From a virus (taxonomy: Duplodnaviria; Heunggongvirae; Uroviricota; Caudoviricetes), in the IMG/VR virus record IMGVR_UViG_2606217111_000011: 9,070 bases of DNA; one strand, 5' to 3'. Each line of letters begins with the position of its first letter. Within the stretch, counting starts at the first letter, position 1. Under the pieces are notes generated by a model that saw only the letters and a program-made list of their open reading frames with translations, was not told where the DNA came from and ran no database searches. Below, piece after piece: positions 1-9,070 of this stretch. The translations under genes were made by a program, and so were the position numbers.

Positions 1-15
1 AGGTCAATAACAAGA

Positions 16-887
16 TCACCAACCGGCTGGGACATATCTCACACCTCCCGGAATCCCCGCTGAAGCCATCATTAATGCGGCATCATCCACCATGACATCC
101 GCCACATCCGCAGACGATAAAATATCGCCCCCTCCGTCCCCACCGAACCGGACGCCTCCGGCAAGTCCTGCCGCTTTCTGCATCAGCATTTTGTCCTCAT
201 CCGGCCTCTCCACCTGCTCTTCCTCATGCCGGGGGACAAGCAGACTGAAATCAGAGGGATGCATATCCGGATCGCAAAAAAACAGGCTGAGTACAGCGTA
301 CGTCAGCCCGGAAAAATGCATATCCAGCTGGGTATCCTGAAAATAATGCGTGCGGTAAAAACGGTGCCAGTCGGCATATTCGGTGGATGTCATCCCGGCA
401 AGCATGGTGCGCCAGTCGGGTCTCCCCATCTCACGCGCCAGTCTGAGGGCAAAGTTCAGCTCACCGTCGAAGACTTTCCCGCAGAAAAATCATCATCAGT
501 CAGCGTGTTATTTTTCGCCACTTCAGTAATATCAGTATCCGGACGAACAGCTTCGATCATCCCGGACAGACGCAACACCACGTCTTCCGCCCGGGCAATG
601 GCATCAGCAGGCCAGGTGGTGAGCACTTCCTGCTCTATCTTCATCACGGCCTCATTCATTGACGGTGACTGCGTTTTCTGTGGATGGTTATGCCACAGGG
701 ACATCGCCACCAGAAACGCGCCGGTTCTGACAAGATCTTCCACACTCACCTGCAGGTTGCCGCTGGCTTCAGCCTCTTCTGCCCGCCGTTTCAGGAGGGC
801 AAGATGCTCAATACGCTGCAGCGCAGACAGCTCAGAAAGCGTGACAGACACACCGTTATATTCAAATTGTTCTGTTTTCAGGAACAT
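16..887 (-). CDS. T: Tail assembly chaperone G-T fusion, made by -1 frameshift at 474-480 (T segment 16-477)
   Basis: The T frame has no ribosome-binding site or start of its own upstream of the frameshift site and is contiguous with G in the -1 frame. The T-segment translation (DWRTMLAGMTSTEYADWHRFY, LDMHFSGLTY, DPDMHP, LMQKAAGLAGGVRFG) matches recalled lambda gpT. Confidence 0.82.
456..887 (-). CDS. G: Tail assembly chaperone G
   Basis: 143 aa. Recalled lambda gpG blocks: MFLKTE-FE-NGV-VTLSELSALQRIEHLA, GAFLVAMSLWHNHPQKTQ-PSMNEAV, EQEVLTTWP. It ends just after the slippery heptamer. Confidence 0.9.
   Translation of the reverse strand: MFLKTEQFEYNGVSVTLSELSALQRIEHLALLKRRAEEAEASGNLQVSVEDLVRTGAFLVAMSLWHNHPQKTQSPSMNEAVMKIEQEVLTTWPADAIARAEDVVLRLSGMIEAVRPDTDITEVAKNNTLTDDDFSAGKSSTVS
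474..480 (-). promoter_or_regulatory. -1 programmed ribosomal frameshift slippery heptamer G GGA AAG (G to G-T)
   Basis: The minus-strand sequence GCG GGA AAG TCT lies 5 codons before the G stop. The -1 frame is open from this site (VFDGELNFALRLAREMGRPDWRTM...) down to the TGA at 16-18. This is the canonical lambda G/GT arrangement. Confidence 0.85.
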
Positions 888-905: not shown

Positions 906-1655
906 TTAGCCACCCGGCACATTATTAACGGTAATTTCAGCCACCGCAGCAAACTGACCATTACCGGAAATCACAGGGATCTGCACCTTACCTGTCGCCA
1001 CGCCGTTCACAGTAATTGTCATATCTTTCACACTAATGGTGGCTTTCGACGGATCGGCGGAAACCGCTCTGAACGTCTTGTCGGTTGCACTTTCCGGTTC
1101 AAAAGAAACCGTCAGGGTGGTTGTTTTCCCTTTTGCCACCGTACCGGATGTCGGCGTCACCTTAATCGCACTGACCGGCGTAATTTTGCTGCGTTCTTCC
1201 GCTACAGAAGGTTTACCCACGTTAGTGACTTTCACCGTGCGGGTGATCACTTCTTTCGCCGTCACGGCCTTACCGATACTGCTGACCCAGCCACGAAACA
1301 CATCCACCGTGCCATTCGGAAAACGGATTTTATAGGCCCGGACATCGCCGCTTTCAAACCAGCCTATAAGCCCTTTCTGGCCTTCCTCTCCCGGTTTCCA
1401 GGCCAGCGTAAAACTGGTATCACCTGCAGATTTCTGCCCCTGCCCGGTCGCGGTCCAGTCTGCGTCTTCATCATCCAGGTAGTTATCATCGTAGGATTCT
1501 GCCGTCATCTCGCCCGGCGTCAGATCCTTCACCTTAGCCAGTCGCTGCCAGTCATCGTCTGACAACGGGTTTGCATAAGCATCACCCTTGCCGTTGTAAA
1601 CCCACAGAGTGGTACCGGCACCTTTTACCGGCTCAAGAGGATTTGGTGTTGCCAT
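906..1655 (-). CDS. V: Major tail tube protein V with C-terminal Ig-like domain
   Basis: 249 aa. Recalled lambda gpV blocks: [112 protein letters not shown] ribosome-binding site before the ATG at 1653-1655. Confidence 0.93.
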
Positions 1656-2058: not shown

Positions 2059-2588
2059 CGTTTTATCGCAATCCTCAGTTGTTGTTTCAGCGCGGATGCC
2101 AGTTCTCCGGGCAGGCGTTCACGCCGGATACGGTCAACATTCTCATCAAACGCCTGTTTCAGTGGGGCCGCCATCGGGATTTTCACCACATCAATAGGGT
2201 AACGGTTTTTCCCGGCCACACGCTGCATAACATGCCAGCGCCCATTATTTAATCGCTGGATAAATGCCCGCTGATACCGATGCTGACCGGCTTTAAGTAT
2301 GCTGTTCGGACGACGGCCCAGCATCCTGATCCCCAGCTTAATCACTGGAAGATCACCGCGGTTAACGATAATTCTGGCATTCGGATTTCTGACCGTGGCC
2401 CGTTTCAGTCTGGACCGTTCCTTAACCAGTTTCCGGCGTACCTTTGTCTCCCGGGCAACCTGTGATGAAGACTGATTAATCGCCGTTGTGGCCACGCGGT
2501 TAATCGTCATTGCTGAAGCCGCCGGAATGGCGTTTTTACGAACCCGGCTCAGATTATCAATCGCCTGATCAAGCCCTTTTATCGCCAT
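2055..2588 (-). CDS. Z: Tail assembly/completion protein Z
   Basis: 177 aa. N- and C-terminal blocks recalled from lambda gpZ: MAIKGL, QVARETKVRRKLVKER-RLKRATV, NRGDLPVIKLG, NGRWHVMQRVAGKNRYPIDVVKIPMA, RIRRERLP. GGGGGA ribosome-binding site before the ATG at 2586-2588. Its TGA overlaps the U start in an ATGA arrangement. Confidence 0.9.
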   Translation of the reverse strand: MAIKGLDQAIDNLSRVRKNAIPAASAMTINRVATTAINQSSSQVARETKVRRKLVKERSRLKRATVRNPNARIIVNRGDLPVIKLGIRMLGRRPNSILKAGQHRYQRAFIQRLNNGRWHVMQRVAGKNRYPIDVVKIPMAAPLKQAFDENVDRIRRERLPGELASALKQQLRIAIKR

Positions 2589-2603: not shown

Positions 2604-2957
2604 TTATCGTCGCCGGTTAACAGCGGGTGGTTGCCCACGGTTGAGCCAGAGATAACAGCTTCCCCCGTCATCCGGAGAAACACGATCCACCCAGAACATC
2701 TCGCCGTTAATGGTCAGCGTGTCACCACGCCGCACGGCACGCACCGTATCCGTCCGCACAAATAATGACGGGCTGCTTCCTTCAATACGGACCCCGCCAC
2801 CGGCAAAACCCAGCGACTCCGGATCGTCAAAAACCCCCTGAACTTCGCCGCCACGTTGTGCTCCGGAGGTGAACTGCGCACGGATCCCCATCACTTCAAC
2901 AATCGTACTGTCCACCCCGGCAAGGGCGGCATCAAAGGCATTCTGAAAATCACGCAT
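2604..2957 (-). CDS. FII: Head-tail joining protein FII
   Basis: Motifs recalled from lambda gpFII: FDAA, GVFDDPE, GVRIEGSSPSLFVRTD, RRGDTLTI, FWVDRVSPDDGGSCYLWL, PPAVNRRR. I place the start at the ATG at 2955-2957 (MRDFQNAFDAA..., 117 aa, as in lambda) rather than the upstream ATG at 2993, which has no ribosome-binding site. Confidence 0.85.
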   Translation of the reverse strand: MRDFQNAFDAALAGVDSTIVEVMGIRAQFTSGAQRGGEVQGVFDDPESLGFAGGGVRIEGSSPSLFVRTDTVRAVRRGDTLTINGEMFWVDRVSPDDGGSCYLWLNRGQPPAVNRRR

Positions 2958-3160
2958 AAACAGCCATTCCACCATCAACGTGTGTTTTTGCATCTGAGGA
3001 CATAATCAGAATCACCCGACCAACATCCGCAAGCTCAACGGATTCCCCCGTTTCACCATCAACGCCACAGAGATGGAGGCAGGTCAGAACTCTGATGCGT
3101 TAACGCGCCGGATGTTTCCTCACCATTGAGCCGCGGTTTCCCGCTCCCGGATATCCATAT

Positions 3161-3316
3161 TCATAACCTGTACATCATCGCCGAGGCGCAAACCTCCTCT
3201 TCCCATTCTGCCACCCGCTGCGCTATCTCTGCGGCACTCCCGGATATATCCGGCTCACGCCCCAGAATCAGGGCCAGTTCATCAAGCCGTTTCAGATTTT
3301 GCTCTTTCGTTGCCAT
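3161..3316 (-). CDS. FI: FI-like DNA-packaging protein, N-terminal domain only (51 codons); possibly a truncated gene or pseudogene
   Basis: Not in the ORF track because it is under 60 aa. ATG at 3314-3316 is preceded by AGGGGG with a 5-nt spacer. My translation is MATKEQNLKRLDELALILGREPDISGSAAEIAQRVAEWEEEVCASAMMYRL, ending at the TGA at 3161-3163. It resembles the lambda gpFI N-terminus as I recall it (MTKDELIARLRSLGEQLN...EELALRVAELKEE). It lies at the FI position between E and FII. Confidence 0.5.
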   Translation of the reverse strand: MATKEQNLKRLDELALILGREPDISGSAAEIAQRVAEWEEEVCASAMMYRL

Positions 3317-3330
3317 ATCAGCCCCCTGTG

Positions 3331-3358
3331 AAAAAAACACGGGGGCATTTCGCCCCCG
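3331..3358 (-). terminator. Candidate rho-independent terminator immediately downstream of E
   Basis: On the minus-strand RNA: CGGGGGC GAAAU GCCCCCG, a 7-bp all-G/C stem (3340-3346 paired with 3352-3358) with a 5-nt loop, followed by UG and seven U (plus-strand A-run 3331-3337). It begins 8 nt after the E stop. Confidence 0.55.
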
Positions 3359-3366
3359 CTCACGGA

Positions 3367-4395
3367 TTATTTCACCTGTACCACCACAAACTCATCCGGA
3401 TCCGGCAGCACCATCAGCGGCGCGGACTGCGTCATGGTGAATTCACAGGACGGATCGCCCACGGTCAGCCAGTGTTTCGGGTAACGGGAAGAAGCCACCA
3501 CTCCTTCAGATAACGCCTGTGCATCCTTAATGGCTCCATAGCAACGAATCCCCTCTGCTGCCGTATTCCCCAGCACCAGCGTGCCCTCCGGCAGATAACG
3601 TTTTTCGGTACCGTCCTCTGCCACATAAGACGTTTTCGCTACCACAATGGCCAGATCGCCGTAATACCCCTTGAAGGATACCACTGCGCCCAGATCTTTC
3701 ACTGCCGTTTCGAGTTGTGAATTTGAACCGCGACGGGTATCCAGTTTTTCGCGGAAAAGCTTAAAGCCATTCAGCAGACGCCAGACGGTACCGTCCATAA
3801 TGGCAATATTCACAAGACCACTGGCCTGATCACAGAAAAGGTCGATATCATATGTCGGGTCGAACGTGTCACGATCCTGTTTTGACCACTCCTTACCGCT
3901 ACCTTGTATGATGTTATTCTTCGTCGATCGGCCAAAATCGACTTCAATTTTCTCGAACTGGTCTCCTTCCATCGTATATTTGCCATACAGCACGGCATTC
4001 ACCGCCTGCATTTCTTCCACCTGGACAATAGCGTGCTCTTCCTGTTTGAGGTTATCGGTAATGATACGCAGACGACGGTAGGCCGGGTCGTTCAGCTGAG
4101 CCGGATCTTCACCAGGAAGGCGCTCAACCGCCTGCTGGTAATTAAATTCGTGTTTGGGCTTGACGTAGCCCGGACGTAACACGCGGGTTTCACCACCGCG
4201 ATGGCGAAGCACTTTTCCTTCAACGATCGGGGAGACATAGGCCGCCACCGGCGTTTTTCCGGTAATTTTGTCCAGCATCACCTCTTCGGTGTGGAAATTC
4301 ACCGTACGGCGGAAAAACAGCTCCAGAAACAGCGCACGGAATTTCACTTTTTGTTCGGTATAACCGAGTAACTGGCGGGTCGTAAACAATCCCAT
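3367..4395 (-). CDS. E: Major capsid protein (lambda gpE family)
   Basis: 342 aa; lambda gpE is 341 aa. Recalled conserved blocks: YVSPIV, PGYVKPKHE, DPAYRRLRII, VEEMQAV, GKYTM, LDTRRGSNS, LETAVKDLG, FTM-QSAPLM. ATG at 4393-4395 with AGGA upstream. Confidence 0.95.
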   Translation of the reverse strand: MGLFTTRQLLGYTEQKVKFRALFLELFFRRTVNFHTEEVMLDKITGKTPVAAYVSPIVEGKVLRHRGGETRVLRPGYVKPKHEFNYQQAVERLPGEDPAQLNDPAYRRLRIITDNLKQEEHAIVQVEEMQAVNAVLYGKYTMEGDQFEKIEVDFGRSTKNNIIQGSGKEWSKQDRDTFDPTYDIDLFCDQASGLVNIAIMDGTVWRLLNGFKLFREKLDTRRGSNSQLETAVKDLGAVVSFKGYYGDLAIVVAKTSYVAEDGTEKRYLPEGTLVLGNTAAEGIRCYGAIKDAQALSEGVVASSRYPKHWLTVGDPSCEFTMTQSAPLMVLPDPDEFVVVQVK

Positions 4396-8127: not shown

Positions 8128-9070
8128 TCACTCCTCCGGACAGCTTCGCTGCCAGTTCTTTAAGGGTTGGCCGGGTCGTCTCTTCTTCCCGGGATTTTGC
8201 CAGTACAGCCAGATCAAGCTGCCAGCGTTGCACGGACACACGTAATGCCGCGTAGGCATACACCAGGCAGTCCAGCGCTTCGTTACGCCGCTTTTTGTTA
8301 TCCCACAGCAGACGCATCTTTCCTTTTTCCCACTTCTCCACAAGCTCTTCCGCGACCAGTTGCTGCGCCTCTGTCTGCGAAAAAATCTCCGGATCATCAG
8401 GAAAACGGATAGCATACGACGTGGCTTCATCCACAGGCGTGGGATCGGCTTTCATACGGGCATAGAGAATTTCTTTTGCGGTGTCCGTCCCCACTTCACA
8501 CAGATACACGCCCCGCTGATTGCGGGTTTTTGGCATGGTGATCACCGGCTTGCCATAGACAGATGCGCCTTTTACCGGCAGCACCCGGAAAACACCGTGT
8601 TTTTTTGACCTCTGATAAACGATTTCGCCATCGATCCCCCCGATGTCCCAGCAGACACGGGAAATGGTCATTTCGGTTCCGTCTGCATGGCGGTATTTTT
8701 TGTTGATCGCCGCATCCACACGTAACAGCGTCTCTTCCTCATCGGGACGCCCCATAATGATGATTTTATCCACCAGAAAGGCTTCCTCTCCCGGAGCCCA
8801 TCCCCAGACATACATCTCAAAACGGTTTCGCTGCGAGTCAATGCCCGCCGTCAGATAAACCACCCGGGCAGGCACCGCCGCCGTGTAACGCACAACCTTA
8901 TCCATCAGCACCTGGTGATCGAGTTTTTCGCCCACAGCCTCTTCCCAGGTCTCGCCCAGCGTGGTGTTCACAAAGGTTTTCAGGCCGTTGGGATCTTTCA
9001 GTGCATCCAGCCAGTCATAGACAATCTGTACCCAGGTGGTGAACGGACTGTACGCCGTCCAGATATGGAA
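8111..9070 (-). CDS. A: Terminase large subunit, C-terminal part (gene continues beyond the window end)
   Basis: Minus-strand frame is open from 9070 down to the TGA at 8111-8113. Translation (FHIWTAYSPFTTWVQIVYDWL...FVNTTLGETWEE...VYLTAGIDSQ...ILWDNKKRRNEALDC...) matches my recollection of the lambda gpA C-terminal region. The M at 8971 in the ORF track is an internal GTG, not the true start. Confidence 0.9.
   Translation of the reverse strand, partial: FHIWTAYSPFTTWVQIVYDWLDALKDPNGLKTFVNTTLGETWEEAVGEKLDHQVLMDKVVRYTAAVPARVVYLTAGIDSQRNRFEMYVWGWAPGEEAFLVDKIIIMGRPDEEETLLRVDAAINKKYRHADGTEMTISRVCWDIGGIDGEIVYQRSKKHGVFRVLPVKGASVYGKPVITMPKTRNQRGVYLCEVGTDTAKEILYARMKADPTPVDEATSYAIRFPDDPEIFSQTEAQQLVAEELVEKWEKGKMRLLWDNKKRRNEALDCLVYAYAALRVSVQRWQLDLAVLAKSREEETTRPTLKELAAKLSGGVNGYSR

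What the first reader, a model, noticed from the sequence alone, without database searches (positions are those of the whole stretch)
2958..3316. FI-like gene reduced to a 51-codon N-terminal fragment, followed by about 165 nt with no intact reading frame
At the position where lambda carries the roughly 132-aa FI gene, I find only a 51-codon ORF (3161-3316) with a good ribosome-binding site and an N-terminus that resembles FI. It stops at a TGA where the acidic linker would begin. The remaining 2958-3160 has stops in all three minus frames within 50 codons or fewer. The same frame after the TGA reads ...RLNGEETSGALTHQSSD..., which faintly resembles a lambda FI linker as I remember it. This suggests either a decayed FI, with implications for packaging efficiency or a defective prophage, or a naturally short single-domain variant. 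The FI stop also forms an ATGA motif (3161-3164), but the ORF it opens is only 14 codons.
Basis: partly seen in the sequence, partly recalled or inferred. Interest (0 to 1): 0.5.

Follow-up and report, generated by a model that had tools for sequence, protein, structure and literature searches.

The report
Frameshift-broken phage FI packaging gene
This is an ordinary, complete phage-21-type FI DNA-packaging gene whose reading frame is broken in three places in this draft contig, probably by an assembly error; it is not a new short form of the protein.

Summary
A 51-codon ORF (3161-3316, minus strand) with a GGGGG ribosome-binding site matches the first 40 positions of Pfam Packaging_FI and stops at TGA.

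The rest of FI is not missing. Window 2950-3316 is identical to the 124-aa FI gene of phage 21 and to many E. coli prophages, except at three small lesions in the disordered linker: L1 (3181-3194, net -1 nt), L2 (3123-3127, -5 nt) and L3 (3097-3100, -2 nt). The C-terminal domain, which has the lambda gpFI 2LSM fold, is intact but out of frame at 2950-3099. It ends in the usual ATGCGTGA overlap with FII.

The lesions are not random decay. L1 is an exact patch of a second natural FI allele (14EC017/PhiR5_1 type). Z and V in the same contig are also unique mosaics of the same two haplotypes.

The lesion sequences were not found in 5,426 complete E. coli genomes, 50,697 phage records or IMG/VR. 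The 59-aa product occurs on this contig only. Two other draft assemblies of the same project also carry unique, frame-broken hybrid FI genes.

I lean towards a mixed-allele assembly artefact (about 0.6). The alternative is a very recent gene-conversion pseudogene (about 0.3). Either way the finding is ordinary.

The parts
3367..4395 (-). Major capsid protein gene E (342 aa), the upstream neighbour of FI.
   Evidence: ORF. It hits PF03864 Phage_cap_E. The exact protein is found on 383 contigs. Its 3' part (4000-3337) is of the 14EC017 (B) haplotype.
3331..3359 (-). Terminator-like hairpin GCGGGGGCGAAATGCCCCCGT followed by a T-run, lying between E and FI. The T-run lacks the C that phage 21 carries (GTGTCTTTTTT) and matches the 14EC017 allele instead.
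3322..3326 (-). FI ribosome-binding site, GGGGG, 5 nt upstream of the ATG.
   Evidence: The equivalent site is annotated as the ribosome-binding site in phage 21.
3161..3316 (-). FI N-terminal ORF as deposited: 51 codons plus TGA. Codons 1-41 are authentic FI (the helical N-domain). Codons 42-45 (VCAS) are read from the allele-B patch, and codons 46-51 (AMMYRL) are frameshifted backbone sequence.
   Evidence: Pfam PF14000 positions 1-40 are matched. The AlphaFold2 model of the intact allele has helices at 4-18 and 28-44.
3181..3194 (-). Lesion L1. The sequence GGTTTGCGCCTCGG replaces AATGCAGTCATCCGG of phage 21 (net -1 nt). It is an exact patch of the 14EC017/PhiR5_1-type FI allele and rejoins the phage-21 backbone out of register at a 3-nt CGG match.
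3123..3127 (-). Lesion L2. Phage 21 GCTCA[TG]ATG[TTC]GTGAGG becomes GCTCAATGGTGAGG (net -5 nt). It follows the gap structure and GGTGAGGA of the second allele. Together with L1 it returns the gene to the original frame, but only after the in-frame TGA.
3097..3100 (-). Lesion L3. AACGCGCATC becomes AACGCATC (CG lost, -2 nt). This puts the C-terminal domain in a third frame.
2950..3099 (-). FI C-terminal domain coding segment (RIRVLTCLHLCGVDGETGESVELADVGRVILIMSSDAKTHVDGGMAVYA plus TGA). It is intact but out of frame. Its stop overlaps the FII start (ATGCGTGA).
   Evidence: Translation. It is 100% identical to phage 21 DNA. The intact allele folds as a beta-rich domain at residues 74-123 with pLDDT 83-91. 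Its best PDB match is 2LSM, the lambda gpFI C-terminal domain (TM 0.73).
2604..2957 (-). FII head-tail joining gene (117 aa), intact, the downstream neighbour of FI.
   Evidence: It hits PF05354. The exact protein is found on at least 1000 contigs.

Best explanation
Shown:
- The window is the whole 9,070-bp contig JOMY01000146.1 of the draft assembly GCA_000711355.1, from E. coli 2-427-07_S4_C3.
- It carries a lambda/phage-21-type head-tail module.
- Between E and FII it holds a complete phage-21-type FI gene: an N-terminal helical domain, a disordered acidic linker and a C-terminal beta domain with the lambda gpFI fold.
- The reading frame is broken by three small lesions, all within or at the edges of the linker.
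- As deposited, translation yields only the N-domain plus 10 residues that differ from phage 21 FI. The C-domain, which in lambda is the prohead-binding part according to the literature, is not translated. The deposited gene therefore could not supply FI chaperone function.
- The lesions are patches or gap states of a second natural FI allele (14EC017/PhiR5_1 type), set out of register into an otherwise 100% phage-21-type backbone.

Inferred:
- The strain carries two related lambdoid prophages, here called haplotypes A and B.
- The deposited consensus of this repeat-bounded contig mixed reads of both.
- The frameshifts are therefore most probably an assembly or consensus artefact, and the real FI gene is intact.
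For: Gene identity and completeness:
- FI identity and synteny.
- Window 2940-3345 is identical to phage 21 and ATCC 25922 except at L1, L2, L3 and one base in the T-run.
- These are the only frame-changing indels in the 9 kb.
- The C-domain fold matches 2LSM.

Hybrid origin of the lesions:
- L1 is an exact 14EC017-type patch, including a rare C.
- Z and V in the same contig are also unique mosaics of haplotypes A and B.
- There are no isolated point substitutions in FI, which argues against gradual decay.

Uniqueness:
- None of 911 complete E. coli genomes or 19 phage records carrying this FI shares any lesion.
- The lesion sequences are absent from IMG/VR, and L1 is absent from GTDB species representatives.
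- The 59-aa product occurs on this contig only, whereas W, B, C, D, FII, U and G are each on at least 1000 contigs.

Project effect:
- Two other draft assemblies of the same isolate-naming series have unique, frame-broken hybrid FI genes.
- In JNPZ01000054 the junction joins 14EC017-type and PhiR5_1-type sequence, net +1 nt.
- In JOQE01000058 the FI blends two alleles with 21 switches in 150 informative columns, and its best match in complete genomes is only 86%.
Against: - No reads are available, so the artefact is inferred and not shown.
- The assembler is unknown. A de Bruijn graph assembler could not create junctions at 3-11 nt of shared sequence, so the artefact needs an alignment-consensus or polishing step.
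- Outside the patches, FI is pure A-type (124 of about 136 informative columns). A simple majority consensus of mixed reads does not obviously predict that.
- I could not show that a B-type FI allele is present in the same assembly.
- Real recombination between co-resident lambdoid prophages is plausible from general knowledge, and one heteroduplex with patchy repair could give the same picture.
- An FI annotated as frameshifted also exists in a complete genome.
Confidence: 0.6

Rival explanations
1. Real, very recent pseudogene. Recombination or gene conversion between two co-resident (or co-infecting) lambdoid prophages formed heteroduplex DNA across FI, Z and V. Patchy repair, or template switching at microhomologies, then left short B-type patches in an A-type gene. 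Some patches are out of register, which inactivates FI. The prophage would then package DNA poorly unless FI is supplied in trans by the other prophage or bypassed by fin-type suppressors.
For: - The patches come from a natural second allele.
- One event could explain several lesions with no point substitutions.
- All other genes of the module are intact.
- The V joint is in register and leaves an intact 249-aa ORF.
- The FI linker is a natural recombination joint: some database proteins (P0060, P0065) combine a phage-21-like N-terminus with a lambda-like C-domain.
- A de Bruijn graph assembler could not fabricate such junctions.
- Literature: gpFI is essential in vivo and can be bypassed by suppressors (PMC13595911).
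Against: - The lesions, and the Z and V variants, are unique to this one draft contig.
- Three out-of-register junctions within 100 nt are not expected from homologous exchange, which is normally in register.
- The same class of defect recurs in FI in two other assemblies of the same series. In contrast, every complete-genome FI opened here except L008 is annotated intact, and the top 40 hits all have the intact length.
Confidence: 0.32
2. Gradual neutral decay of FI in a defective prophage, through independent random mutations accumulated over time.
For: - There are three separate frame-disrupting lesions.
- Defective prophages are common in E. coli (general knowledge).
Against: - FI has zero isolated substitutions relative to the widespread allele, while three or four indel events cluster within 240 nt.
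- The other 12 genes are intact.
- L1 is an exact patch of another allele, not a random change.
Confidence: 0.03
3. A naturally short, single-domain FI variant, or an FI expressed through programmed frameshifting or recoding across the lesions.
For: - The short ORF has a good ribosome-binding site and a conserved N-domain.
- This module does use programmed frameshifting elsewhere: the G/GT slippery site GGGAAAG lies at 474-480.
Against: - No relative has a conserved ORF of about 50 aa. All the ones examined encode a single 122-127-aa ORF.
- The product is unique to this contig.
- Three successive shifts (-1, -5, -2 nt) plus read-through of a TGA would be required.
- There is no conserved two-frame architecture.
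Confidence: 0.02

Closest known systems
Phage 21 ORF1 / FI-like DNA packaging protein (M81255 AAA32347.1; OL657228 CPT_21_09, 124 aa) and the identical gpFI of E. coli prophages, for example WP_000201530.1 in ATCC 25922
   Same: - Same position between the major capsid gene and FII.
- The ribosome-binding site and the start and stop contexts are the same, and the intergenic hairpin is the same apart from one base in its T-run.
- DNA is 100% identical outside three lesions and that one T-run base.
   Different: The window has L1 (-1 nt, a foreign patch), L2 (-5 nt) and L3 (-2 nt). It therefore encodes only residues 1-41 in frame.
Bacteriophage lambda gpFI (Pfam PF14000 Packaging_FI; C-terminal domain structure PDB 2LSM)
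   Same: - Same family by Pfam: N-domain positions 1-40 for the window ORF and full length for the intact allele.
- Same three-part architecture.
- The C-domain fold of the intact allele matches 2LSM (TM 0.73).
- Same genomic position.
   Different: - The C-domain sequence type differs (it ends MAVYA, against LARMQ in lambda), and there was no sequence-level PDB hit.
- The linker differs.
- In the window the C-domain is not translated.
14EC017 / PhiR5_1-type FI allele (WP_096174551.1; XSB41323.1, 122 aa)
   Same: It is the donor type of the L1 patch (GAGGAGGTTTGCGCCTCGG, exact in 14EC017), of the T-run state at 3337, and of the gap and G at L2.
   Different: It is only about 78% identical to the window's FI overall. 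The window backbone is phage-21 type.
Frame-broken hybrid FI genes in draft assemblies JNPZ01000054 (E. coli 2-177-06_S4_C3) and JOQE01000058 (E. coli 3-475-03_S3_C2), and the annotated 'frameshifted' gpFI of strain Z1323HEC0067
   Same: All are FI genes at the same locus, disrupted in or near the linker by junctions between different natural alleles. For the two draft assemblies, each is unique to its assembly.
   Different: They involve different allele pairs and different lesions.

Membership tests
Packaging_FI (PF14000; lambda gpFI family) | Conserved N-terminal segment of about 40 aa that matches the family profile. | tested here: met
   The 51-aa ORF matches PF14000 positions 1-40 of 131 at 48.6 bits against a cut-off of 27, E = 1.4e-12. 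Residues invariant across 32 homologues are present.
Packaging_FI (PF14000; lambda gpFI family) | One ORF of about 120-135 aa that joins the N-domain, the variable acidic linker and the C-terminal domain. | tested here: not met
   As deposited, the ORF stops after 51 codons and the three parts lie in three frames. All the coding DNA is present, and correcting 8 nt restores the 124-aa protein.
Packaging_FI (PF14000; lambda gpFI family) | C-terminal domain with the gpFI fold (PDB 2LSM). | tested here: met
   This was tested on the intact allele P0001, whose C-domain DNA is identical to window 2950-3099. The AlphaFold2 model has pLDDT 83-91 for residues 74-123. The best PDB match is 2LSM, with probability 1.00 and TM 0.73. 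The fragment alone gives no Pfam hit.
Packaging_FI (PF14000; lambda gpFI family) | Position between the major capsid gene E and the head-tail joining gene FII, with the FI stop overlapping the FII start. | tested here: met
   The ATGCGTGA overlap lies at 2950-2957.
Packaging_FI (PF14000; lambda gpFI family) | Chaperone activity that promotes docking of the terminase-DNA complex on proheads. | not testable with these tools
   Known only from the literature on lambda (PMC4856287, PMC13595911).
Assembly or consensus artefact from two co-resident alleles | The aberrant sequence is unique to the assembly. | tested here: met
   No lesion occurs in 911 complete E. coli genomes or 19 phages carrying this FI. 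The lesion patterns were not found in IMG/VR, and L1 was not found in GTDB representatives. The product occurs on one contig only.
Assembly or consensus artefact from two co-resident alleles | The aberrant bases derive from a second natural allele or haplotype. | tested here: met
   L1 is exact in 14EC017, and L2 and the T-run follow that allele. Z and V alternate between the same two haplotypes. L3 is not clearly allele-derived.
Assembly or consensus artefact from two co-resident alleles | The same class of defect recurs in other assemblies from the same pipeline. | tested here: met
   JNPZ01000054 and JOQE01000058 each carry a unique hybrid, frame-broken FI. That they share one pipeline is inferred from the strain-naming series, not documented.
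Assembly or consensus artefact from two co-resident alleles | Reads show two clean alleles, and no read spans the hybrid junctions. | not testable with these tools
   No read data could be reached. Logan contigs carrying the window's T protein are not the same sequence.
Programmed ribosomal frameshift gene | A two-frame architecture and slippery site conserved in relatives. | tested here: not met
   The relatives examined have one uninterrupted FI ORF.

The most novel reading that the evidence does not exclude
The lesions are real. A single recombination event between two co-resident lambdoid prophages left multiple short, partly out-of-register conversion patches across FI, Z and V. It knocked out the packaging chaperone of one prophage while every structural gene stayed intact. 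This would be a snapshot of prophage-prophage gene conversion creating a defective but trans-complementable prophage.
Probability: 0.3. Interest if true: 0.3.

Novelty: already known. Interest (0 to 1): 0.1.

Why it matters
It matters little biologically. FI is a well-studied lambda packaging chaperone, and frameshifted copies are routine in databases.

The practical value is for annotation. The 59-aa 'DNA packaging FI family protein' KEJ38730.1 should be read as a fragment of a frameshifted, probably mis-assembled, 124-aa gene and not as a short FI family member. The unique Z and V proteins of this contig deserve the same caution.

If the lesions were real, they would mark this prophage as defective in packaging. 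They would also document very short, out-of-register conversion tracts between co-resident lambdoid prophages. That would be of modest interest for prophage evolution.

Tried and rejected
- **Exact look-up of the 51-aa product:** not on record. The 59-aa GTG-start product is only on the source contig.
- **Exact DNA patterns of the lesions:** L1, L2 and L3 gave no hit in IMG/VR viral contigs, and L1 gave no hit in GTDB species-representative genomes.
- **Search for the same prophage in other assemblies through rare exact neighbour proteins:** V is on this contig only. T is on 7 contigs, but the Logan and ENA contigs are short, differ by 1-40 mismatches and do not reach FI. No independent assembly of the same strain was obtained.
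- **Literature search for the strain name:** no paper found. Popovic et al. 2012 on the gpFI structure is not held.
- **Sequence search of phage 21 FI against PDB chains:** no gpFI hit. Only the fold comparison found 2LSM.
- **Family searches:** NCBIfam gave no model hit for the fragment or for a conceptually repaired protein. The C-terminal 49-aa fragment alone has no Pfam hit.
- **Simple de Bruijn graph path chimera, rejected:** the A/B junctions share only 3-11 nt.
- **Whole-contig fine-scale read mixing, rejected:** identity to relatives runs in long blocks outside the FI-Z-V region.
- **Gradual decay, natural short variant and recoding, rejected:** see the rival explanations.
- **Looking for a B-type FI protein named for the same strain among cluster members:** none listed.

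Full report
**What the window is.** The minus strand carries a lambda/phage-21-type morphogenesis module. In order it holds the terminase A 3' part, W, portal B, protease/scaffold C, D, major capsid E (3367-4395), the FI region, FII (2604-2957), Z, U, V, G and T. The window is the entire contig JOMY01000146.1 (9,070 bp) of the draft assembly GCA_000711355.1, from E. coli 2-427-07_S4_C3.

**Check of the observation.**
- ATG 3316-3314 opens a 51-codon ORF that ends at TGA 3163-3161. GGGGG lies 5 nt upstream.
- The product matches Pfam PF14000 Packaging_FI over profile positions 1-40 of 131 (48.6 bits, cut-off 27, E = 1.4e-12).
- The ATGA motif and its 14-codon ORF are there.
- No frame stays open for more than about 50 codons downstream.

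**What is really there.**
- The closest phage record is phage 21, at 96.6% over 521 nt. Its annotated FI (ORF1 in M81255, CPT_21_09 in OL657228) has 124 aa.
- Aligned to it, window 2940-3345 is identical at every base except four places:
  - One C is missing from the intergenic T-run (3337).
  - L1 (3181-3194): a 14-nt replacement, net -1 nt.
  - L2 (3123-3127): GCTCA[TG]ATG[TTC]GTGAGG becomes GCTCAATGGTGAGG, net -5 nt.
  - L3 (3097-3100): CGCG becomes CG, net -2 nt.
- After L1 the frame hits TGA. L3 then shifts the rest into a third frame.
- That third frame reads RIRVLTCLHLCGVDGETGESVELADVGRVILIMSSDAKTHVDGGMAVYA*. This is exactly the phage 21 FI C-terminus, and it ends in the ATGCGTGA overlap with the FII start. 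The gene is therefore complete at DNA level but frameshifted, not truncated.
- Against the ATCC 25922 prophage (97.0% over 9 kb), these are the only frame-changing indels in the whole window.

**Domain context.**
- An alignment of 32 FI homologues shows an almost invariant N-terminal 41 residues, a hypervariable linker of variable length, and several C-domain types.
- An AlphaFold2 model of the intact allele gives helices at 4-18 and 28-44, a linker with pLDDT below 50 at residues 47-70, and a beta-rich C-domain at residues 74-123 with pLDDT 83-91.
- The best PDB fold match of the model is 2LSM, the lambda gpFI C-terminal domain (probability 1.00, TM 0.73 normalised to the target).
- L1 falls at codons 42-46, L2 at 63-66 and L3 at 75-76. 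All three lie in the linker or at its edges.
- According to the literature, gpFI sits on the gpE lattice of the prohead and helps the terminase-DNA complex to dock (PMC4856287). It is essential in vivo, stimulates packaging about 200-fold in vitro, and can be bypassed by suppressors in terminase and capsid genes (PMC13595911).
- A fragment that lacks the C-domain should therefore be non-functional. This is an inference.

**Nature of the lesions.**
- They are not random. The L1 patch GAGGAGGTTTGCGCCTCGG (encoding EEVCAS) is the sequence of a second natural FI allele family, the PhiR5_1 type. It is exact, including a rare C, in the prophage of strain 14EC017. That prophage also has the C-less T-run and the 5-nt gap plus GGTGAGGA at L2.
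- The patch rejoins the phage-21 backbone at a 3-nt CGG match, one base out of register.
- Outside the patches, FI is purely phage-21 type (124 A-type against about 12 B-type informative columns) and carries no isolated substitutions.
- The same two haplotypes alternate further along the contig. A is ATCC 25922-like and B is 14EC017-like:
  - The E 3' part (4000-3337) is B.
  - FI and FII are A.
  - Z carries B patches at 2402-2374 and 2262-2229.
  - V is B down to 981 and A from 971, with the joint in 9 nt of identity.

**Uniqueness.**
- None of 911 complete E. coli genomes (of 5,426) that carry this FI, and none of 19 phage records, shares any lesion. The best identity is 96.2-96.6%, which is the intact allele.
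- The lesion patterns are absent from IMG/VR, and L1 is absent from GTDB representative genomes.
- In a collection of about 15 billion proteins, the FI remnant, Z and V of this contig occur on this contig only. W, B, C, D, FII, U and G each occur on at least 1000 contigs, E on 383 and T on 7.
- Z reaches only 98.3% identity in any complete genome.

**A project effect.** Two other draft assemblies with the same strain-naming scheme also carry unique, internally truncated FI genes.
- JNPZ01000054 (E. coli 2-177-06_S4_C3) has a +1 junction made of a 14EC017-type half and a PhiR5_1-type half.
- JOQE01000058 (E. coli 3-475-03_S3_C2) has FI split into 64 and 55 aa and a truncated FII. Its FI blends 14EC017-type and PhiR12_1-type alleles, with 21 switches in 150 informative columns. 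Its best match in complete genomes is only 86.2%.
- By contrast, every complete-genome FI opened here except L008 is annotated intact, and the top 40 hits all have the intact length.

**Interpretation.**
- With high confidence (above 0.95), this is a phage-21-type FI gene, full length at DNA level, whose frame is broken by three linker lesions. It is not a naturally short FI.
- The cause is less certain. I favour a consensus or assembly artefact that mixed reads from two co-resident lambdoid prophages (about 0.6). The reasons are the uniqueness of the lesions, the out-of-register hybrid junctions, the absence of point substitutions, the parallel unique mosaics in Z and V, and the recurrence in sister assemblies.
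- The main rival (about 0.3) is a real, very recent gene conversion between the two prophages with patchy repair. It predicts the same sequence pattern and cannot be excluded without reads.
- Two points count against the artefact. A de Bruijn graph assembler could not make junctions at 3-11 nt of identity. And the rest of the contig is a clean mosaic of long blocks.
- Gradual decay, a natural short variant and recoding are each disfavoured by the comparison with relatives.

**Novelty and interest.** The gene family, its position, and the phenomenon (a frameshifted or mis-assembled prophage gene) are all known. Interest is low. The useful outcome is a caution for annotation: KEJ38730.1, and probably the unique Z and V proteins of this contig, should be treated with care.

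Noticed in passing
window 3331-3359 (minus strand): A strong terminator-like hairpin (9-bp stem with 7 GC pairs, followed by a T-run) sits between the major capsid gene E and FI. It is conserved in all relatives aligned. Its T-run differs by one base between FI allele types. It might lower FI expression relative to E.
   Followed up: partly
window 971-1010 (V gene, minus strand): The V gene is a recombinant of two common alleles: UPEC957C/14EC017-like upstream and ATCC 25922-like downstream. The joint lies in only 9 nt of shared sequence (ATCCCTGTG). The resulting 249-aa protein is found on no other contig.
   Followed up: partly
window 2229-2402 (Z gene, minus strand): Z is a fine mosaic, with two B-haplotype patches of about 30 nt in an A-haplotype gene. 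The exact 177-aa protein is unique to this contig. The best DNA identity in 5,426 complete E. coli genomes is 98.3%.
   Followed up: partly
window 474-480 (minus strand): The lambda-type slippery heptamer G GGA AAG lies 13 nt upstream of the G stop codon. This fits the conserved G/GT -1 programmed frameshift of the tail assembly chaperones.
   Followed up: no
window 1-15 and 8972-9070 (contig ends): The contig starts inside terminase gene A and ends just past T, at the start of the tape-measure gene. This is typical of a repeat-bounded contig in a genome with several related lambdoid prophages.
   Followed up: no
L012 (JNPZ01000054.1) 4613, 6203, 6726; L024 (JOQE01000058.1) 3001-3710: Other draft assemblies of the same strain series have broken D, FI, FII and Z genes in the same module. 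The FI lesions there are again junctions between different natural alleles.
   Followed up: partly
proteins P0042, P0043, P0044: Three database proteins (Logan contigs; P0042 also in NCBI) fuse FI residues 1-55 (...VMNMD) directly to fragments of T or V. These look like assembly chimeras at a short repeat. They show that FI is a frequent break or mis-join point in short-read assemblies.
   Followed up: no
alignment A5; P0060, P0065: Some E. coli FI proteins combine a phage-21-like N-terminal domain with a lambda-type C-terminal domain. The linker is therefore a natural module boundary between the conserved N-domain and the C-domain types.
   Followed up: no
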